Positions 842 to 23,586 of a stretch of DNA of 24,000 bases are shown here, one piece after another (the stretch's first letter is position 1; each line of letters opens with the position of its first letter). The DNA comes from Promethearchaeum syntrophicum (GTDB taxonomy: Archaea > Asgardarchaeota > Lokiarchaeia > Sigyniarchaeales > Promethearchaeaceae), in NCBI RefSeq assembly GCF_008000775.2, contig NZ_CP042905.2, positions 3,625,723 to 3,649,722 of the forward strand. The letters run 5' to 3'. The position numbers were made by a program, and so were the translations under genes. The notes under the pieces were generated by a model. It did not search any database and was not told the origin of the DNA. It saw only the letters and a program-made list of their open reading frames with translations.

Positions 842-1267
842 TTAAACTCGTGTGTTTTTGATTTCATAACCACAATGACTACAAAAATAAACGGACAAAT
901 TTTCTATATTTCTATCTATCTCACTTCCACATTGTAGACAGTATTTCTGATTTCTTCGTATTGTGGTTGGTTTTGGTTCTGAAGGAGATTGTGCCCTTCT
1001 TTGTACGTAATGTTGTGTTCTCCCCCTAGATCGAGCCCTAGAAGCCGAAGAAATTGCCCCTATCACACTTATCATAATTATTACCAAATATATCATAGGA
1101 AAACTAAAAACACTCGACCTACCAATGAAGAAGAATATTCCGAGAAAGAATAATATACTCGTTATAGAAGATATAATCAAAAAATTTCTTTGCCTTGGTT
1201 GAGAATTTCCATCATTTTCATTTTCTTCCTGATTTTGGGAAGCTATAATCGGTGTCATCCATGCCAT
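842..1267 (-). CDS. small membrane protein with a C-terminal zinc ribbon
   Basis: 141 aa. The N-terminus MAWMTPIIASQNQEE matches the N-termini of the two large paralogs. Two hydrophobic helices follow (FLIISSITSILFFLGIFFFIG, FPMIYLVIIMISVIGAISSA), then an Arg-rich linker and CLQC-x15-CSHC (CxxC...CxxC). Met4 (1258) is an alternative start. Confidence 0.6.
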   Translation of the reverse strand: MAWMTPIIASQNQEENENDGNSQPRQRNFLIISSITSILFFLGIFFFIGRSSVFSFPMIYLVIIMISVIGAISSASRARSRGRTQHYVQRRAQSPSEPKPTTIRRNQKYCLQCGSEIDRNIENLSVYFCSHCGYEIKNTRV

Positions 1268-1325: not shown

Positions 1326-1354
1326 CCATATGCAACCATATGAAAGGTCCATAT
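1326..1354. promoter_or_regulatory. phased CCATATG repeat array in the divergent promoter region
   Basis: CCATATG at 1326-1332 and 1336-1342 (10-bp spacing), with a degenerate CCATAT at 1349-1354. The array lies between the divergent 842..1267(-) and 1387..2073(+) genes. In minus sense it sits just upstream of AATATTAT, about 49 nt before the ATG. Confidence 0.5.
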
Positions 1355-1386
1355 TAAAAATTAAATAAGAATTCAAATGAACTTAA

Positions 1387-2316: not shown

Positions 2317-2342
2317 AAAAAATAACCGATATATTCTCGGTT
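2317..2342 (-). terminator. hairpin plus T6 tract downstream of paralog A
   Basis: In gene sense: AACCGA gaatata TCGGTT A TTTTTT. Stem arms are at 2324-2329 and 2337-2342; the A6 run on the plus strand is at 2317-2322. It lies about 70-95 nt after the stop at 2411. Confidence 0.45.
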
Positions 2343-2410
2343 AGTGGTCATCTGAACCTAAATGTTGATGACCATAACATTGGGTTGATTACTTTTATTT
2401 GAAAAAAATA

Positions 2411-3940
2411 TTATTCTTCGACTAAATTTTTCTTTTTGTTTCTATATTCTCTAAACCACGGAATTGCTAATGTGATGGATGTCAAGATCCCCATAAAAAC
2501 AAGATAAAATTGTTGAAATAGTATGTATTTATTAAATTCACCAAAATACATATCTGGGATATTTTCATAAGTCCAATTGCTCAGTACTCTAATTAATATA
2601 TTTGGAATGAATACAAATACATTTAGAAGCAGTGCTCCCAAATAAATATTTTTCTTGAATTTGTGTTCTATGAAAAGCAATCCGAAATTAATGATTCCAA
2701 GTATTATTATTGAGATCGTATAAAATGACCACCCATACATCCAAGACGGAATAATTCCAATTAACTCAATAAAATATATCATTTTGAGATAATTGTCATC
2801 GTTACTCAGTTCTTCTTTTAAATTACTTGAATTTATGAACAATTGAATCAAAGCCATAACTTGGAACATAATAAACACTATCCCACTAAAACTAAAAAGG
2901 ATAGTAAGTTCTGCCCACCTGAAAGGAAAATAAAAAACAAAATCAGATATAGCAAATAAGCTTCCCGAAATAAATATTCCATAGAGAATTAATGGTAAAT
3001 TAATTTTAATTTTGGATGCATTTCTATATTTTACAACGATGACACCAATCACTGCACTTAATATGGTAATAATTAGAAATTGTGTGATAAAACTATAACC
3101 AACAAAAACGGACACAAAATTTCCTACAGTAAAATAGAAAGTGAAGAATAAAAGATTCAATTGATCTTTTTTAGATCCCGAAAGAAGGGAAACTCCAATT
3201 CCCAAACAACTGACTATGAATATCACCAAAAATAAAGCTTGAGGACTTTCTACAATTTTTGTCCCGAGATCAGTTTCTCTCCAATAAGTAAAAGAGAGGA
3301 TTCCCAGAAAACAAAGATATTGAATACCAAATAAAATTACATTTTTACCTTTCTCTTGATCACGGGGTTTAAGGGACAGCCAAATAGAAATTATTGCAAT
3401 AATGATGCTAATTGATAACAGAACATAAAAAATAATTTCGAAGGTATGATTGTATCCCCAAAGAATTCCTACAAGATGTGAAGTGAAAATTAGAATGATA
3501 TCCAGAATTATTATTAGGATAGAAAAAATCATTGAAAACTTAATCTCCTTTCCAGCAACCGAGATGCGATATAAACTTGGTTCGGAGGATTTTTCACTTG
3601 TATCTTCCGCATTCATTCCTGATTTAATTTGAATATTTTTTTGTTCCTTTTTATTTATTCCAATGAGAAACACTATAAGAATTAAAATCAGGGTGACTGC
3701 CATTATAAAAGGAATAAAATCAGCTTGGAAAAAATCAGAGAAAAAATTTGAAATTATTCCCGAAATTGAATCAATTCCCATTGTACTTCCTAAATTATTC
3801 AATTTTACTGTAAGGTATGCAAAAAAAACATAGGGAATAAATATCATCAATAAAAATTGTAAATTTTTCTTAAATTGGATTCTATTTTTTCCTTTTTCTT
3901 CCTGAGTTTGGGAAGCCAGTATGGGTGCTTTCGACGCCAT
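2411..3940 (-). CDS. polytopic membrane protein of unknown family, paralog A
   Basis: Long ORF with more than 12 hydrophobic segments and no motif I recognise. The track start at 3964 is a TTG. ATG at 3940 (MASKAPILASQTQEE...) is preferred because it aligns with the start of the 842..1267 protein and lies about 46 nt after an AATATAAA element. Confidence 0.8.
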   Translation of the reverse strand: MASKAPILASQTQEEKGKNRIQFKKNLQFLLMIFIPYVFFAYLTVKLNNLGSTMGIDSISGIISNFFSDFFQADFIPFIMAVTLILILIVFLIGINKKEQKNIQIKSGMNAEDTSEKSSEPSLYRISVAGKEIKFSMIFSILIIILDIILIFTSHLVGILWGYNHTFEIIFYVLLSISIIIAIISIWLSLKPRDQEKGKNVILFGIQYLCFLGILSFTYWRETDLGTKIVESPQALFLVIFIVSCLGIGVSLLSGSKKDQLNLLFFTFYFTVGNFVSVFVGYSFITQFLIITILSAVIGVIVVKYRNASKIKINLPLILYGIFISGSLFAISDFVFYFPFRWAELTILFSFSGIVFIMFQVMALIQLFINSSNLKEELSNDDNYLKMIYFIELIGIIPSWMYGWSFYTISIIILGIINFGLLFIEHKFKKNIYLGALLLNVFVFIPNILIRVLSNWTYENIPDMYFGEFNKYILFQQFYLVFMGILTSITLAIPWFREYRNKKKNLVEE

Positions 3941-3986
3941 AAATGTATTAAATGAAAACGACAATATAGTTAGATCCCTTTATATT

Positions 3987-4022
3987 CATATGACACCATA
4001 TGATACCATATGATGCCTTATG
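3987..4022. promoter_or_regulatory. four CATATG-type repeats at exact 10-bp spacing upstream of paralog A
   Basis: CATATG at 3987, 3997 and 4007, and CTTATG at 4017. In gene sense the array directly abuts AATATAAA (complement of about 3978-3985). Confidence 0.55.
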
Positions 4023-4140
4023 ATTTTTCATTGATTTTTTCAATTTTATTTTTATGAAATTCCTTCTTGGTTTTTTCTGCTAAATGGGGGGAGAATAAAT
4101 GGTAAAGCTATCCAATAGAATGGAATAAGACACAGTTCAA
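4017..4140 (-). pseudogene. decayed copy of the MFS transporter 3' end
   Basis: Aligns with 5979-6101, the true C-terminal codons of the MFS gene. An extra G in the G-run at 4086-4091 (GGGGGG, versus GGGGG in the functional copy) shifts the frame, and nothing homologous lies upstream. Confidence 0.75.
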
Positions 4141-4215
4141 CAAGCAAAGAAGATTAGCAGAATCTTCATGGGATTTCCTAAATATCCTTAAAGACTTGTG
4201 AAATATTGTAGAACC
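4141..4215 (+). pseudogene. decayed copy of the LRR gene 3' end
   Basis: Aligns with about 1983-2058 (AKKISRIFMGFPKYP*RLVKYC versus VKKISRTFLGYAKYPQRLVKYC). CAA has become TAA, giving an in-frame stop. It starts exactly where MFS homology ends, which marks the duplication junction. Confidence 0.7.
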
Positions 4216-4279
4216 AAAGCACATTATGAATGAATGTGGTTAAATCAACAAGAAATTATCATCCCATAAGCAAAAAGTG

Positions 4280-4303
4280 AAAAAAAACCGAGTTATTCTC
4301 GGT
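4280..4303 (-). terminator. hairpin plus T8 tract downstream of paralog B
   Basis: ACCGAG (4287-4292) pairs with CTCGGT (4298-4303). In gene sense the hairpin is followed by T8 (plus-strand A-run 4280-4287). It is the positional homolog of 2317-2342. Confidence 0.45.
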
Positions 4304-4374
4304 CAGTGGTCATCTGGACCTCAAAGCAGATGATCATAGCATCGGGTTAATTACTTCTATCTGTAAAAAAAATA

Positions 4375-5901
4375 TTATTCTTCGACTAGATTTTTCTTTT
4401 TGTTTCTATATTCTTTAAACCACGGAATTGCTAATGTGATGGATGTCAAAATCCCCATAATAACAATATAAAATGGTTGATATTCTACGTATTCGTATCC
4501 ACTAAGGTCACTTTCATAGATCCAATTGCTCAATAATATAATTAATATATTTGTAATGAATACAATTAAATTAAGAAGCAACGCTCCCAAATTAATATTT
4601 TTCTTGAATTTATGTTCCGTGAAAAGTAATCCGAAATTAAGGATTCCGAGTATTATTATTGAGATCGTATAAATTGACCACCCTTCCATCCAAGACGGAA
4701 AAATTCCAATTAACTCAATAAAATATAACATTTTAAGATAATTGTCATCGTTACTCAGTTCTTCTTTTAAATTACTTGAATTTATGAACAATTGAATCAA
4801 AGCCATAGCTTGGAACACAATAAACACAATCCCAATAAAAATAAAATGGATGGTAAGTTCTGCACTCCTGAAAGAACTTCCTAAAATAAATTCATAGATA
4901 GCAAAAGAGCTTCCCGAAATAATTAATCCATAGAGAATTAGCGGTAAATTAATTTTAATTTTGGAATTATTTTTATACTTAATAACAATGAAACCAATCA
5001 CTGCACTTAATATGCTAAAAATTAGAAATTGTTTAATATACAGTAAACCGGCATTATATCCAAAAACGGACACAAAATTTCCTACTGTAAAATAGAAACT
5101 GAAGAATAAAATATTCAATTGATCTTTCTTAGATCCCGAAAGAAGGGAAACTCCAATTCCCAGACAACTGACTACAAATATCACCAAAAATAATAATTGA
5201 GGACTTTCTACTATTTTTATTCCATTACCGAAACCAGTTTCACTCCAATAAGTTAAAGAGAGAATTACCAGAAAACAAAGATATTGAATTCCAAATAAAA
5301 TTAAATTTTTACCTTTCTCTTGCTCACGGGGTTTAAGAGAGAGCCAAATAGAAATTATTGCAATAATGATGCTAATTGATAGCAGAATATAAAAAATAAT
5401 TTCGGAAGTTTGATTATATCCCCAAAGAATTCCTACAAGATGTGCAGTGAACATTAGAATGATATCCAGAATCAATATTATTATAGAAAAAATCAGCGAA
5501 AACTTAATCTCCTTTCCAGCAACCGAGATGCGATATAAAATTGGTTCGGCGGATTTTTCACTTGTTTCTTCCGCCTTCATTCCCGATTTAAATTGATTTT
5601 TTTTATGTTCCTTTTTACTTATTACAATGATAAACGCTATAAGAATTAAAATCATGGTGACTGCAATTATATAAGGAAGGAAATCAGCTTGGAAAATATC
5701 AGAGAAAAATCTTGAAATAATTTCCCAAAATGAATCAACTCCCAGTCTATATCCTATATATTTCAATTTTAATGAGAAGTATGCTAGAAAAACATAGGGA
5801 ATAAATATCATCAAAAAAATGTGTAAATTGTTCTTAAATTGAATTTTTGTTTCATTTTCTTCCGAAGTGTGGGAAGCCAGTATGGGTGCTTTCGACGCCA
5901 T
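4375..5901 (-). CDS. polytopic membrane protein of unknown family, paralog B
   Basis: Collinear with paralog A; roughly three quarters of residues look identical by eye, and differences cluster in predicted loops. ATG at 5901 (MASKAPILASHTSEE...) is preferred over the track's TTG at 5925. Confidence 0.8.
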   Translation of the reverse strand: MASKAPILASHTSEENETKIQFKNNLHIFLMIFIPYVFLAYFSLKLKYIGYRLGVDSFWEIISRFFSDIFQADFLPYIIAVTMILILIAFIIVISKKEHKKNQFKSGMKAEETSEKSAEPILYRISVAGKEIKFSLIFSIIILILDIILMFTAHLVGILWGYNQTSEIIFYILLSISIIIAIISIWLSLKPREQEKGKNLILFGIQYLCFLVILSLTYWSETGFGNGIKIVESPQLLFLVIFVVSCLGIGVSLLSGSKKDQLNILFFSFYFTVGNFVSVFGYNAGLLYIKQFLIFSILSAVIGFIVIKYKNNSKIKINLPLILYGLIISGSSFAIYEFILGSSFRSAELTIHFIFIGIVFIVFQAMALIQLFINSSNLKEELSNDDNYLKMLYFIELIGIFPSWMEGWSIYTISIIILGILNFGLLFTEHKFKKNINLGALLLNLIVFITNILIILLSNWIYESDLSGYEYVEYQPFYIVIMGILTSITLAIPWFKEYRNKKKNLVEE

Positions 5902-5947
5902 AAATGTGATAAACGAAAACGACAATATAGTTAGATCCCTTCATATT

Positions 5948-5983
5948 CATATGATACCATATGTCACCATATGATGCCTTATG
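5948..5983. promoter_or_regulatory. four CATATG-type repeats at exact 10-bp spacing upstream of paralog B
   Basis: CATATG at 5948, 5958 and 5968, and CTTATG at 5978. The last unit overlaps the MFS stop codon (5979-5981). Confidence 0.55.
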
Positions 5984-7328
5984 ATTTTTCATTTGTTTTT
6001 TCTATTTTATCATTATGAAGTTCTTTCTTGGTTTTTTCTGCTAAATGGGGGAGAATAAAGGTTACAGCAATCCAATAGAAAGGGATTAGACATAACTCAA
6101 CATATATAGAAATCAGGAAGGGTGCTGTGGGATCAATTTTATCCCATGCTAAGCCGCCAAAAAGAGGTCCAGCAATATTACCAATATTAATGAATAATTT
6201 TTGAAGACCAAAGATTTTTCCTCTATTATTTATAGAAATCCTGCTAAGTAGATTTTGCACTGAGAGCCCAGCAACGGATGCAATAGTAGTATCTAGAGTC
6301 CACAGAATAGCAATCATTACTAATGAGTCTGTATTAAGGAAGAAATACGTAGTAATAGCCCCAAATACACTTGAAATTGTGATTGCTAATGCAGGATTAA
6401 ACCTATCAACAAAACTTCCAATTTTTGGAGCAAGAGTAAATGAAATAATACCACCGGGGAGATAAGCAAATAAGAGTGCATTTGGATTATTCGAAATATT
6501 GTCTAAAATATAGATTTGAATAAAGGGTTGAGCGATCGACCCATTTAAACTCGCTAAGAATAGAACAATTAATAGAAATACGAACCCTAAAATTAAAAAT
6601 TTTGATTGTGAATTTCCATTCTTTTGGAACAATTCCTCAGTGAATGAATCTGAATTTAGATTGTCTTTCCTAAATTTTATAGATTCATCAACATTTCGGA
6701 CAAATTGAGTACCGGCATACATATTTCCTAATCCAAAAAGAATCATTGGAGAGAAAAGCAAAAAGACTGGCCAATTTAGTCCAGTTCCAAATCCAAAAAG
6801 TGTAAACCCAATAAAGGATCCGATCATTACACCTTTTCCCATTTCCTGGTCTCGCTTACCGAAGGCATAACTCCTATTTTCTCTGTTTGATTTTTCTGAA
6901 ATCAGAGTGTCAAAGGGAATCCAAAAAAAACCAACCCCAAAACCTAGTGAAAATGTCCCTACACTAAGTAAAGTTAATGATTGTGCTAAGGTGGCTATGT
7001 AAATGATAAAATATGAGATTCCTCTACCCCAAGACCCAACTAATATTAATTTAGTTTTTGAGAATTTTGAATTATCAGTTAAGATCCCAACAAATAGAGA
7101 AGAAAACATATATCCAAATATTTGTACTGAAGCCAAAAATCCAATTTGAAATCCCGTTGCTGTTAATGTTTCGTTAGCAATATAAGGAACAAGAAATGTA
7201 ATATAGAACAGTCCTAAACTATTATAAAACACTATTTTTATCATTGAGTTAAAATCTTCAGTAGTTTTTGGAAGCGCCTTTCTGTCAGCTGTTGTTATTT
7301 CGTCTATAATTTTGGGTATATCGGTCAT
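5979..7328 (-). CDS. MFS-type transporter
   Basis: 449 aa, about 12 hydrophobic segments split 6+6 by a polar central loop (RNVDESIKFRKDNLNSDSFTEELFQKNGNSQSK). A motif-A-like stretch GILTDNSKFSKTK follows TM2. Confidence 0.65.
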   Translation of the reverse strand: MTDIPKIIDEITTADRKALPKTTEDFNSMIKIVFYNSLGLFYITFLVPYIANETLTATGFQIGFLASVQIFGYMFSSLFVGILTDNSKFSKTKLILVGSWGRGISYFIIYIATLAQSLTLLSVGTFSLGFGVGFFWIPFDTLISEKSNRENRSYAFGKRDQEMGKGVMIGSFIGFTLFGFGTGLNWPVFLLFSPMILFGLGNMYAGTQFVRNVDESIKFRKDNLNSDSFTEELFQKNGNSQSKFLILGFVFLLIVLFLASLNGSIAQPFIQIYILDNISNNPNALLFAYLPGGIISFTLAPKIGSFVDRFNPALAITISSVFGAITTYFFLNTDSLVMIAILWTLDTTIASVAGLSVQNLLSRISINNRGKIFGLQKLFINIGNIAGPLFGGLAWDKIDPTAPFLISIYVELCLIPFYWIAVTFILPHLAEKTKKELHNDKIEKTNEKS

Positions 7329-8078: not shown

Positions 8079-8142
8079 CGAATAAAGAAAAAATGAAAAC
8101 CATTTAAAATATCTTATTTTTTAAATCTAATGTGAAAAAAAT

Positions 8143-8546: not shown

Positions 8547-8571
8547 GAAAACTCTTCGGGATGAGTTTTTC
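8547..8571 (+). terminator. hairpin plus T tract after the DinB-like gene
   Basis: GAAAACTC (8547-8554) pairs with GAGTTTT(T)C (8563-8571) around an 8-nt loop, with the T-run at the 3' side, 18 nt after the stop. Confidence 0.45.
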
Positions 8572-8636
8572 GATTTTAAATTAAACTCGAAAGCCATTTA
8601 TAGCATCTCTTTTTTTTATTCACATGTGGAAACACA

Positions 8637-21444: not shown

Positions 21445-23586
21445 ATGTCAAATAATGGAAATTTAACTAAAAATTCAGAATTGCACCATGGGAAAGGGTC
21501 TATGGATCCTGATAAAGACCCAGATAATGACTTGAATTTTGAGTTTAGATATAAAAATGACAAATTTTTGACTAAAAAACTTATTAATCGTATAGAAACC
21601 CTCTCGTTTGATATTCCTAAAGATGAAAAAATTACTGCCATGTTCTGTGACCTTCAATGGGATGATTCAACACCATTTTTTGTGATTTATCTAATACCAT
21701 TAATTTTTTCTATGTCGATGATGATCCCAGGATTTTTGATTGATGGAATGTCAATAATATCGCTTTTTATTTTACCATTAGGTTTATTATTATCATATAT
21801 TATTATAATTCTTATTACAAAAACGAGACCTTTCAAGATTTTGCTTTTTACAGAGAAATCTATCAATTCAATTCATTTATTTAGAAGTGGGTCGTTTCAT
21901 AAATATATCCCCTATGACAGAATCTCATTTCTTGCTATTGATAAAAATACCATATCGATAGAAGATAAAAATAAAAAGGCTTACATCAAATTTTCCATGA
22001 ATTATAATAAAAATACGTTTCTAAAAACAGTAAGAGAGTTGATATATAATCACTTGGGAGAAAATTCTCTAGTAGAATATGAAAATGATATAATTAAGAC
22101 GCGAGTTGAAGATTTAAAAGAAAAAATTGAAACCTCTAAATCAGGAAAATTTGCGGAAAAAAATAGAAAAAAAAGGTTTAAAGAAATTGAAGGACTAAGC
22201 GTCCCAATAAAAATAGGATTGCACAATTATAATTCTAATGAAAATAGTGTTAAGTTAATTAAGAAGAAAATTAGATCATCCAAAACGACAATAATCGTCT
22301 CAATACTTATTGTAATTCCAATTATTGTCCTCATCACAATCTTTTTCTCTTCATCCTTAACAGTTATGATAATGACATTTATAATAGGTCCGTTGATATT
22401 AGGTGTTTTTATTATTATTTCAATTCAAGAATATCATAGACTAACGAATTTTACAAATTCAGATAAATCTACAATACGGATATTGGAAGATGGCTTGGAG
22501 ATAATTAATAACGACAATAAAGATCTTGGTGGCGTGATTAAAGTGCCGTTTAAGACCGATATGATTATTAAACCATATGGTTATATAAATCCCAGCTACT
22601 CGAAATATAGTATTAATTATAATACTATTGATATTTTAAGATGGCTTCATCCACAATACAAAATTAAGATTGGAAAAATAGAAAATATTCGGGATTTCTA
22701 CAATAACCTCTACATAGCTTATTTTAAATGGTATAAATCCACCCAAGGTGACAAGATCCTTTCAACGGATGAAATTTTTAACAAATTTATACATACTGAT
22801 GATTTCAACAAGAAATTGTATAATACTATGAAACAATCAATTCAAAACTTCCTATGTGATGTAAAACGTTCCACTTATCGTTTTAATAGGATTGAATCTA
22901 TCATGAAAACTGTCAATCTGACGGATATTGACGAAATAAAAAAACCATTAAAAAAACTAGAAGATCTTCCTGAAATAATTGAGATTCCAGAAGGAGTGAT
23001 AAATCCTGATTGTGGCTCTGAATCTGAAGGGGATAAAATCAGAACTAGGGATTTACTTGAGTGGAGTCTTATTTATCCAAAAGAATTCTACCAATTTTAT
23101 ATAAATGATGATGAAAAGATACTATTTGCCTATCATCCATCAAGTAACATAAAAATCGGAACTTTTGTAAAAAGAATCGTTGTTTTAGTTACATTATTTT
23201 TTATATCAACCTATTCAGTTTATCTATTATCTGATGAGATTGTTTCGGCATTATTTCTAACTACTATTCTTTTTCTCTGCCCGATTTTTAAAATTTTCAC
23301 TGGAATAGACACATACAAAAGAGAAATAATCTTTACTGATAAGAAAATTCTTAACTTGAGTTATATGAATCTATATTTTACAACCTATACCAATATTGAA
23401 AAAGCTTCAAAATATCACCAGAAATCGGATAAAATCCTCAAAAAATTAGTCCTCTCTCTAAAAACAAATGCTACAAGTACCACAAATATAAATATTCATT
23501 CAATTAATATAAAAAAACTTCCCCTAAACTCACCAATCTTTGCGATATTATCTAAAAAAGGTGTTTCATTATATAGGAGTGATTAA
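21445..23586 (+). CDS. membrane protein with three TM-hairpin modules followed by PH-like (bPH_2/DUF304-like) segments
   Basis: Modules at about aa 60-175 and 565-660 follow the YdbS/YdbT-type pattern. That pattern is DEKI(x)..., two TM helices, (I/L)(I/L)FT(E/D)K(S/K)I..., then a short beta-rich segment (IPYDRISFLAI). A third TM pair (aa about 285-330) is followed by STIRILEDGLEIINN. The start lies 1 nt after the upstream stop. Confidence 0.6.
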   Translation: MSNNGNLTKNSELHHGKGSMDPDKDPDNDLNFEFRYKNDKFLTKKLINRIETLSFDIPKDEKITAMFCDLQWDDSTPFFVIYLIPLIFSMSMMIPGFLIDGMSIISLFILPLGLLLSYIIIILITKTRPFKILLFTEKSINSIHLFRSGSFHKYIPYDRISFLAIDKNTISIEDKNKKAYIKFSMNYNKNTFLKTVRELIYNHLGENSLVEYENDIIKTRVEDLKEKIETSKSGKFAEKNRKKRFKEIEGLSVPIKIGLHNYNSNENSVKLIKKKIRSSKTTIIVSILIVIPIIVLITIFFSSSLTVMIMTFIIGPLILGVFIIISIQEYHRLTNFTNSDKSTIRILEDGLEIINNDNKDLGGVIKVPFKTDMIIKPYGYINPSYSKYSINYNTIDILRWLHPQYKIKIGKIENIRDFYNNLYIAYFKWYKSTQGDKILSTDEIFNKFIHTDDFNKKLYNTMKQSIQNFLCDVKRSTYRFNRIESIMKTVNLTDIDEIKKPLKKLEDLPEIIEIPEGVINPDCGSESEGDKIRTRDLLEWSLIYPKEFYQFYINDDEKILFAYHPSSNIKIGTFVKRIVVLVTLFFISTYSVYLLSDEIVSALFLTTILFLCPIFKIFTGIDTYKREIIFTDKKILNLSYMNLYFTTYTNIEKASKYHQKSDKILKKLVLSLKTNATSTTNINIHSINIKKLPLNSPIFAILSKKGVSLYRSD

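What the first reader, a model, noticed from the sequence alone, without database searches (positions are those of the whole stretch)
3987..4022. Helically phased CATATG repeats abutting the TATA-like box of three membrane-protein genes
Perfect CATATG hexamers sit at 3987, 3997 and 4007, with CTTATG at 4017, at exactly 10-bp spacing. The same layout recurs at 5948/5958/5968/5978. A third, independent locus has CCATATG at 1326 and 1336 plus CCATAT at 1349. In gene (minus) sense each array ends directly at an AATATAAA or AATATTAT element 46-49 nt before the ATG. CATATG is itself a palindrome, and 10-bp phasing puts every site on one face of the helix. That geometry is expected for cooperative binding of a dimeric transcription factor next to BRE/TATA. 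Two loci are related by duplication, but the third heads an otherwise unrelated gene, so the array looks like a shared operator rather than a duplication relic. At the 1326 locus the array also sits upstream of a TATA-like stretch for the divergent LRR gene, so the regulated gene there is ambiguous.
Basis: seen in the sequence. Interest (0 to 1): 0.65.

Follow-up and report, generated by a model that had tools for sequence, protein, structure and literature searches.

The report
Conserved phased ATATGG promoter repeats
Short ATATGG/CATATG repeats, one DNA turn apart, lie upstream of a small membrane zinc-ribbon gene in the Asgard archaeon Promethearchaeum and its relatives; they are conserved as well as coding sequence, so they are most likely a docking site for an unidentified regulator, and two neighbouring membrane genes acquired the same promoter by gene fusion.

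Summary
The three loci are not independent. A (ATG 3940) and B (ATG 5901) are a 1.96-kb tandem duplication. Locus C (ATG 1267) shares the array, the 5' leader and the first ~16 codons with them. Relatives show the module belongs to the 141-aa membrane/Zn-ribbon family (gene C). The large membrane genes A and B appear to have captured it by in-frame fusion.

Better support for function comes from orthologues. In 12 non-redundant loci from different Lokiarchaeial assemblies, the block ATATGGTAYCATATGG is the only near-invariant non-coding segment. It has 89% column identity, like coding sequence, against 65-77% for the rest of the leader. Where measured (four loci), the second unit starts 65 nt before the ATG. 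This holds whichever gene lies upstream.

What is conserved is a direct ATATGG repeat with a 10-bp period plus a weaker third unit.

Best reading (about 0.5): an operator bound cooperatively on one DNA face by an unknown small DNA-binding protein. TSS, regulator and genome-wide distribution remain untested. It is a new member of a known kind, of moderate interest.

The parts
3987..4022 (-). Array A. Gene sense reads TCATAAGGCA TCATATGGTA TCATATGGTG TCATATG: three perfect CATATG units plus one degenerate unit, period 10. The units start 52, 62, 72 and 82 nt before ATG 3940.
5948..5983 (-). Array B, the paralogous copy. Its three differences from array A are all in the spacers. Unit 5978-5983 contains the TAA stop of the MFS gene 5979..7328.
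1326..1342 (-). Array C: two units (TCATATGGTTGCATATGG in gene sense). The second unit starts 65 nt before ATG 1267. This is the ancestral two-unit core form.
1349..1361 (+). CCATATTAAAAAT, the off-phase (13 bp) 'third copy'. It resembles other promoter cores of this genome and lies 47 nt before the LRR ATG 1396, so it is probably the LRR core promoter rather than an array unit (inference).
3979..3986 (-). Its counterparts are AATATGAA at 5940-5947 in B and AATATTAT at 1309-1316 in C. It is not conserved in orthologues.
3962..3969 (-). CTATATTG (-29..-22), an alternative TATA-like element. It is homologous to CCATATATATTT of orthologues and is positioned for a leaderless or very short-leader mRNA.
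3880..3940 (-). Shared N-terminal coding module of gene A (MASKAPILASQTQEE...). Copies lie at 5841-5901 (B) and 1207-1267 (C).
2411..3940 (-). Gene A: a 509-aa polytopic membrane protein with no Pfam or NCBIfam match. The C-type N-terminus is fused on.
4375..5901 (-). Gene B, the tandem paralogue of A. The duplicated units are 88% identical at the DNA level, with start-to-start spacing of about 1961 bp.
842..1267 (-). Gene C: 141 aa. It has a disordered acidic N-terminus (MAWMTPIIASQNQEEN), two TM helices, a basic linker and a C-terminal zinc ribbon. This family is the ancestral owner of the array promoter.
4023..4217 (.). Duplication junction. It holds a relic of the MFS 3' end (4058-4151 matches 6018-6111) followed by a relic of the LRR 3' end (4136-4217 matches 1979-2060).
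4286..4304 (-). Hairpin + T6 terminator-like site after gene B; its twin after gene A is at 2323-2343. It implies that gene A is transcribed from its own promoter copy.

Best explanation
The array is a cis-regulatory protein-binding site (operator or upstream activating site) of the promoter of a Lokiarchaeial gene family. That family encodes small membrane-anchored zinc-ribbon proteins (gene C). The functional core is two direct ATATGG repeats exactly 10 bp apart (consensus T-N-ATATGG-TA-Y-C-ATATGG). A weaker third unit (YYWTATGA) often follows one more turn downstream.

All sites face the same side of the helix. The inferred mechanism is side-by-side cooperative binding of two to four copies of a small DNA-binding module in successive major grooves, immediately upstream of or overlapping the BRE/TATA region. 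This is the geometry known for ribbon-helix-helix repressors (MetJ, Arc, CopG) and for head-to-tail winged-helix binders (PhoB/OmpR).

In Promethearchaeum syntrophicum the whole 5' module (array, leader, first ~16 codons) was joined in frame to a family of large polytopic membrane proteins. The array gained one unit and was then tandemly duplicated. As a result genes A and B now sit under the same control as gene C.

Shown: the repeats, their phasing, their conservation and fixed position, the common origin of the three loci, and the fusion architecture. Inferred: protein binding, cooperativity, and the class of binder. Unknown: the sign of regulation.
For: Phasing exceeds chance: 7 matches against 0.09 expected, with period 10 by TRF.

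Specificity in Lokiarchaeial DNA: in 72.8 kb, all 8 direct ATATGG pairs with period 10 are in these loci, always on the gene's sense strand. Only 5 other pairs lie within 30 nt, at periods 13, 23 and 30. Perfect CATATG pairs occur only with spacers of 4 or 14.

Phylogenetic footprint in 12 non-redundant loci (encoded proteins 45-75% identical to gene C): array-core columns have 89% identity and 1.47 bits, against 86% and 1.46 bits for the coding part. The rest of the leader has 64-77% and 0.6-0.9 bits. In a full-gene alignment the core scores 0.883, against 0.715 for the remaining leader and 0.828 for coding.

Invariant positions: T42 A43 G45 T47 C50 A51 T52 T54 G55.

Fixed position: the second unit starts 65 nt before the ATG in window C, L126, L127 and L129.

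Linkage: the array stays with the C-type gene whether the upstream gene is MFS, TPK, a divergent LRR gene or another gene.

Paralogue comparison: between A and B (88% identical overall) the 3 changes in the array are all in spacers, with 0 of 24 in hexamers.

The conserved feature is not an RNA fold: orthologue arrays fold no better than shuffles, z from +0.15 to -1.4, and Rfam gives no match.

Gene A needs its own promoter, because a terminator-like hairpin + T6 follows gene B.
Against: No binding protein is identified, and no regulator gene lies in the window or in the syntenic loci.

No TSS data exist, so the position relative to BRE/TATA is unknown.

Every instance found descends from one ancestral module, so there is no evidence of a regulon of unrelated promoters. 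No other instance occurs in about 70 kb of related DNA.

The genome-wide scan failed.

The C genes are only moderately diverged at the DNA level (0.83 column identity). The footprint is therefore clear but not overwhelming.

The extra units in A/B could be neutral slippage products.
Confidence: 0.5

Rival explanations
1. The repeats are part of the core promoter itself, or of an upstream alternative promoter. They would be BRE/TATA-like or decoy sites for TFB/TBP. In many orthologues unit 1 reads GAAAATAATATGG, which loosely resembles this genome's promoter cores (AAAACCATTTAAAA).
For: Other promoters in the window and relatives share a CCAT + A/T-run core: aaaaCCATTTAAAATATc and gCCATTTATAGCATc. 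The orthologues' downstream TATA-like element is itself CCATATATATTT, roughly in 10-bp register with the repeats.
Against: The best-conserved unit is CATATGG, with invariant C and G and no 8-bp A/T run. The A-rich prefix of unit 1 is absent from window A, B, C, L132 and L134. A promoter at unit 1 would give a leader of about 50 nt.
Confidence: 0.12
2. The element acts at the RNA level, in a long 5' leader or in read-through transcripts from the upstream gene. It would work either as a hairpin or as an array of upstream AUGs. Each unit carries ATG(G), and three units 10 nt apart cover all three frames.
For: Array A folds at -18.6 kcal/mol (z = -6.2) and array B at -13.1 kcal/mol (z = -3.3). ATG is the most conserved part of all three units. 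The array starts at or within the stop codon of the upstream gene in B, L127, L133 and L136.
Against: The hairpin is not conserved: window C, L127, L135 and L126 give z from -1.4 to +0.15. Conservation extends beyond ATG to TATGGT and CATATGG. Rfam gives no match. TATA-like candidates lie downstream of the array, which would leave it untranscribed from the gene's own promoter.
Confidence: 0.1
3. It is a DNA-structural element. Flexible TA steps alternate with GG/CC every half turn, giving anisotropic bendability. That could position an archaeal histone dimer or tetramer, or create a bend, that modulates promoter access.
For: The period is exactly 10 bp, with ATAT and GG about 5 bp out of phase. 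Asgard archaea possess histone-based chromatin (review PMC12993045).
Against: Bendability constrains dinucleotide periodicity, not exact hexamers. Here specific bases are invariant in 12 of 12 loci while the spacers vary. Only two units (about 20 bp) are conserved, which is short for histone wrapping.
Confidence: 0.1
4. It is a neutral replication-slippage repeat, a 10-bp microsatellite inherited by duplication, with no function.
For: Copy number differs between loci, from 2 to 4 units. A and B are a recent duplication. The same 10-nt unit forms long tandem arrays in an unrelated MAG.
Against: Conservation is at coding level, and position is fixed across orthologues with diverged leaders. All A/B differences avoid the hexamers.
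Confidence: 0.08

Closest known systems
MetJ met-box arrays and Arc/CopG-type ribbon-helix-helix operators
   Same: Two to five short boxes arranged head to tail. Neighbouring dimers bind on one DNA face and contact each other, so occupancy is cooperative and depends on copy number. In P. syntrophicum each box is also an exact palindrome.
   Different: Met boxes are 8 bp with an 8-bp period; here the period is 10 bp. Palindromy is not conserved in orthologues. No RHH protein is linked to the site. Resemblance rests on geometry only (own knowledge, not tested).
PhoB/OmpR-family direct-repeat sites (pho box) and membrane-tethered relatives ToxR/CadC
   Same: Direct repeats of a 6-7-bp core with a 10-11-bp period, immediately upstream of the core promoter. 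Monomers bind head to tail. The conserved unit here, ATATGG(TA), is asymmetric, as expected for direct repeats.
   Different: Those are bacterial response regulators acting on sigma-70 promoters. No such protein is identified here, and the sequence is unrelated.
Ss-LrpB and Ptr2 (archaeal Lrp-family regulators with multiple phased sites upstream of BRE/TATA)
   Same: Archaeal promoters with several regularly spaced sites near BRE/TATA. Binding is cooperative, and the outcome depends on position relative to TATA.
   Different: Lrp-type boxes are 13-15-bp palindromes spaced several turns apart. The units here are 6-8 bp and one turn apart, too close for independent wHTH dimers.
E-box CANNTG (CATATG) bound by eukaryotic bHLH factors
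   Same: The hexamer CATATG is formally an E-box, and the host is an Asgard archaeon.
   Different: The 5' C is not conserved in units 1 and 3 of orthologues. No archaeal bHLH is known to me. This is a coincidence of sequence until shown otherwise.

Membership tests
Operator/UAS made of helically phased repeats | Two or more copies of a short motif at one-helical-turn spacing, beyond chance | tested here: met
   7 matches against 0.09 expected. Period 10 only. Spacing from unit 1 to unit 2 is 10 bp in 12 of 12 loci.
Operator/UAS made of helically phased repeats | Conserved at orthologous promoters more than the surrounding non-coding DNA | tested here: met
   89% column identity against 64-77%. 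0.883 against 0.715.
Operator/UAS made of helically phased repeats | Defined position next to or overlapping BRE/TATA of a mapped promoter | tested here: inconclusive
   The distance to the ATG is fixed at 65 nt. There are two competing TATA-like elements and no TSS data.
Operator/UAS made of helically phased repeats | Motif shared by promoters of unrelated genes (a regulon) | tested here: not met
   All instances descend from one module. No other instance occurs in 72.8 kb. The whole-genome scan was not achieved.
Operator/UAS made of helically phased repeats | A cognate sequence-specific DNA-binding protein | not testable with these tools
   No regulator gene is in the window. Needs EMSA, DNA pull-down or DAP-seq.
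Archaeal TATA box/BRE | An A/T-rich octamer about 26 nt upstream of the TSS, preceded by a purine-rich BRE | tested here: not met
   The conserved core CATATGG has invariant C and G. The TSS is unknown.
Structured RNA element | A fold more stable than shuffles and kept in orthologues | tested here: not met
   Only A and B fold well. Orthologues give z from -1.4 to +0.15. Rfam finds no family.
Neutral tandem repeat (microsatellite) | Sequence not constrained relative to its flanks | tested here: not met
   Conservation is at coding level. Copy number does vary from 2 to 4.
E-box (CANNTG) site | A palindromic CANNTG conserved in every unit | tested here: not met
   Unit 1 has C in only 4 of 12 loci. 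Unit 3 is YYWTATG.

The most novel reading that the evidence does not exclude
The repeats are the operator of a Lokiarchaeia-specific regulator that may be the gene's own product. Protein C has two TM helices followed by a strongly basic linker and a zinc ribbon, predicted to be cytoplasmic. It could act as a membrane-tethered autoregulator, in the manner of ToxR/CadC, binding direct repeats. In that case the promoter-plus-N-terminal cassette has been copied onto other membrane-protein genes to wire them into the same envelope-sensing circuit. The cassette includes a rare-codon-maintained CTTCC-N8-GGAAG element at +27..+45. This would be the first operator-regulator pair defined in an Asgard archaeon.
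Probability: 0.06. Interest if true: 0.7.

Novelty: new member of a known kind. Interest (0 to 1): 0.4.

Why it matters
My literature searches found no specific regulatory site described for Asgard archaea. This element is short and exactly defined. It is conserved across several Lokiarchaeial assemblies and present in the cultured strain. [quoted passage not shown] The locus also documents a clean case of promoter and N-terminus capture by gene fusion, followed by tandem duplication.

Tried and rejected
Nearly all were chance single hits in bacteria. The one Asgard hit (L063) is in GC-rich unrelated sequence. The source genome was not returned, so promoter enrichment across the genome remains untested.

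2. A viral-contig scan with AATATGGTAYCATATGG gave 19 singletons, about what chance predicts.

3. The locus of P0006 (DSAG12_02472) could not be retrieved. It is the third P. syntrophicum paralogue with the same N-terminal extension, so I could not check whether it has the array.

4. A profile search with the N-terminal peptide, meant to find other families carrying it, failed. The query was too short at first. The 40-aa version returned only P0029, an orthologue of P0006 without the extension.

5. The metagenome scan with the family-C profile gave only 3 loci.

6. AlphaFold of family A was unusable (pLDDT 37). Family C gave only 2 TM helices plus a small zinc ribbon (pLDDT 60), so no fold search was run.

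7. A PDB profile search for C gave weak hits to ribosomal zinc-ribbon proteins only.

8. Literature searches found no mapped Lokiarchaeial promoters and no archaeal factor binding CATATG.

9. The sigma-70 promoter scan is irrelevant for an archaeon and sits at shuffle level.

10. The RNA hairpin idea was rejected because it is not conserved.

Full report
**1. What is in the sequence**

The window is AT-rich (about 30% G+C) and archaeal. It carries an L30e/S12/S7 ribosomal-protein cluster at 16.2-17.8 kb.

Proteins encoded here occur on a 4,324,194-bp contig. A paralogue on that same contig is named by NCBI as DSAG12_02472 of Promethearchaeum syntrophicum. The source is therefore this cultured Lokiarchaeon or a near-identical genome.

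- CATATG-N4-CATATG with up to 1 mismatch occurs 7 times, against 0.09 expected.
- Tandem Repeats Finder reports period-10 arrays at 3987-4024 and 5948-5985.

All three genes are on the minus strand.
- Gene A is 2411..3940 and gene B is 4375..5901. Both are polytopic membrane proteins of about 509 aa without any Pfam or NCBIfam match.
- Gene C is 842..1267, encoding 141 aa. AlphaFold and Pfam suggest a disordered acidic N-terminus, two TM helices, a basic linker and a C-terminal zinc ribbon.

**2. The three loci are not independent**

A and B are a tandem duplication.
- The start-to-start spacing is about 1961 bp and the units are 88% identical.
- The unit runs from the 3' end of the LRR gene to the 3' end of the MFS gene.
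- It leaves an MFS relic (4058-4151) and an LRR relic (4136-4217) at the junction.

Locus C aligns with A/B from the array, through the leader, into the first ~16 codons. Compare MAWMTPIIASQNQEEN with MASKAPILASQTQEE (repeat family D6).

**3. Where the module comes from**

All 20 members of family C found in public data keep the N-terminal motif.

In family A only the three P. syntrophicum paralogues have it. These are A, B and DSAG12_02472.
- The closest orthologues from other assemblies start at MEKEKKIQFKKNLQ (P0029).
- Their upstream regions contain no array (L121, L124).

In L122 a decayed C-type gene lies directly upstream of a family-A gene. It has the array ATATGGTATCATATGGTAGTACTAG, a mutated start codon and an internal deletion.

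In L127, L133 and L136 the order is MFS, then array, then C gene. The MFS stop codon sits at or in the first unit, exactly as at locus B.

The A/B module is closest to L133. L133 reads TCATAAGGTA TCATATGATAC TCTATGAATATTAAGGG, and A/B have one extra unit.

The simplest history (inference) has three steps:
- An MFS-array-C arrangement lost the body of C and joined in frame to a family-A gene, within the A-rich GAAGAAAA stretch.
- The array gained one unit.
- The segment then duplicated.

The closest orthologue of A/B (P0002, 77% identical) lacks the module, while the distant paralogue DSAG12_02472 (59%) has it. Spread among paralogues within this genome by recombination is therefore likely. I could not retrieve that locus.

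**4. The array is under constraint**

I collected 12 non-redundant loci (13 with B) from different assemblies, whose C-type proteins are 45-75% identical to gene C. I aligned -110..+54 around the start codon.

| Region | Column identity | Bits |
|---|---|---|
| Array core (two central units) | 89% | 1.47 |
| Coding part | 86% | 1.46 |
| Third unit | 64% | - |
| Second TATA-like zone | 65% | - |
| Array core, full-gene alignment | 0.883 | - |
| Rest of leader, full-gene alignment | 0.715 | - |
| Coding, full-gene alignment | 0.828 | - |

The only non-coding run of invariant columns is the array core.

The second unit starts exactly 65 nt before the ATG in window C, L126, L127 and L129.

Homology to the left ends at unit 1, whatever gene lies upstream: MFS, thiamine pyrophosphokinase, a divergent LRR gene, or a 608-aa gene. 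The array therefore belongs to the C-type gene.

In 72.8 kb of Lokiarchaeial DNA, all eight direct ATATGG pairs with period 10 are these loci, on the sense strand.

Between A and B the three substitutions in the array are all in spacers.

**5. What exactly is conserved**

Per-column counts give these consensus units:

| Unit | Consensus | Note |
|---|---|---|
| 1 | T(A/c)ATATGGTA | 5' C of the hexamer present in only 4 of 12 loci |
| 2 | YCATATGG(T/c)A | C, A, T, T, G invariant |
| 3 | YYWTATGAAT | recognisable in 8 of 12 loci |

The conserved repeat is thus the asymmetric ATATGG(TA) with a 10-bp period. Perfect CATATG palindromes in every unit are a peculiarity of P. syntrophicum. A direct-repeat reading fits at least as well as a row of palindromes.

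**6. Relation to the core promoter**

It is not conserved in orthologues.

About 15-20 nt further downstream, orthologues carry CCATATATATTT at roughly -35..-24. A and B have the homologous CTAACTATATTG there.

In 38 other upstream regions, TATA-like words peak at -35..-21 with a second bump at -50..-46. Typical cores read aaaaCCATTTAAAATATc. Shine-Dalgarno sequences are reported to be rare in Lokiarchaea (PMC12993045).

Either element could be the TATA box. The array could therefore abut the BRE, giving a repressor geometry, or lie one to two turns upstream of it, giving an activator geometry. Only TSS mapping can decide.

A hairpin + T6 follows gene B (4304..4286). Gene A therefore probably uses its own copy of the promoter.

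**7. Rivals**

- RNA structure. Arrays A and B can fold into strong hairpins (z = -6.2 and -3.3). That is a by-product of tandem palindromes. Orthologue arrays fold no better than shuffles, and Rfam finds nothing.
- Core-promoter mimic. The best-conserved unit contains invariant C and G.
- Bendability or histone positioning. This would not hold exact bases invariant while the spacers drift.
- Neutral slippage. This explains the copy-number differences but not the footprint.
- Array of upstream AUGs. It cannot be excluded without a TSS.

**8. Mechanism proposed**

Sites 6-8 bp long and one turn apart are too close for independent wHTH dimers. They suit small modules that occupy successive major grooves on one face. 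Examples are ribbon-helix-helix dimers (MetJ, Arc, CopG) or head-to-tail monomers (PhoB/OmpR type). This comparison rests on established knowledge of those systems, not on a test here.

I therefore propose cooperative binding of 2-4 copies of an unidentified small DNA-binding protein. The extra units in A/B would raise occupancy. Confidence is about 0.5.

No candidate regulator is encoded in the window. The zinc-ribbon protein C as its own membrane-tethered regulator is a speculative possibility.

**9. Verdict**

- The element is a new member of a known kind, a phased-repeat cis-regulatory site. Its value lies mainly in its host, where my literature searches found no described operator.
- Interest: 0.4.

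Noticed in passing
window 3896-3914, 5857-5875 and 1223-1241 (minus strand; codons 9-15 of genes A, B and C), and all C orthologues: The motif-coding DNA GCT TCC CAA AAT CAG GAA G keeps rare codons. TCC occurs in 13 of 13 sequences (genome usage 13%). CAG occurs in 10 of 13 (usage 16%). Together they form the inverted repeat CTTCC-N8-GGAAG at about +27..+45. This suggests a nucleotide-level constraint (a small mRNA hairpin or a second protein site) on top of the peptide. No compensatory changes were seen, and it is broken in L129 and L135.
   Followed up: partly
L055 1-240; L077 1211-1317 and 1657-1783; also L032, L089, L106 (Phycisphaerales MAG ALOHA_ZT_35): An unrelated marine MAG carries long tandem arrays (10-24 copies) of the same 10-nt unit CCATATGGNN. 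In L055 one frame is open through the array and encodes a decapeptide repeat (GPYGAIWDHM). It is thus a 10-nt repeat read in three frames. No link to the Lokiarchaeial promoter is evident.
   Followed up: partly
window 2323-2343 and 4286-4304 (minus strand): Bacterial-style hairpin + T6 terminator-like sites lie about 70 nt after the stop codons of genes A and B. They are conserved between the two duplicated units.
   Followed up: no
window 2411-5901; L121, L122, L124: The family-A membrane proteins of P. syntrophicum carry an N-terminal extension taken from the unrelated family-C protein. Orthologues in other assemblies lack it. L122 preserves an intermediate state, with a decayed C gene directly upstream of a family-A gene.
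   Followed up: yes
window 8079-8142 and 8560-8636; L126 2352-2471 and 2988-3051; L129 1168-1207: A strongly conserved promoter core, aaaaCCATTTAAAAYATC, is shared by the DinB-like, substrate-binding-protein and TPK genes across species. It gives a first view of what a Lokiarchaeial BRE/TATA may look like. In the divergent TPK/DinB pair one such core sits between the two genes.
   Followed up: partly
L130 363-1294; L127 1538-2415: Family-C genes often occur as tandem pairs only 5 nt apart, with no array between them. One array promoter probably drives both.
   Followed up: no
window 3941-3966, 5902-5927; L121 about 1350-1365; L124 about 810-825: The leader of A/B contains ACTATATTGTCGTTTTC. 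The family-A orthologues without the module carry the reverse complement AAAACGACAATAGTAT at a similar distance from their start codon. A third partial copy is at window 22268-22293 (repeat family D11). The meaning is unknown.
   Followed up: no
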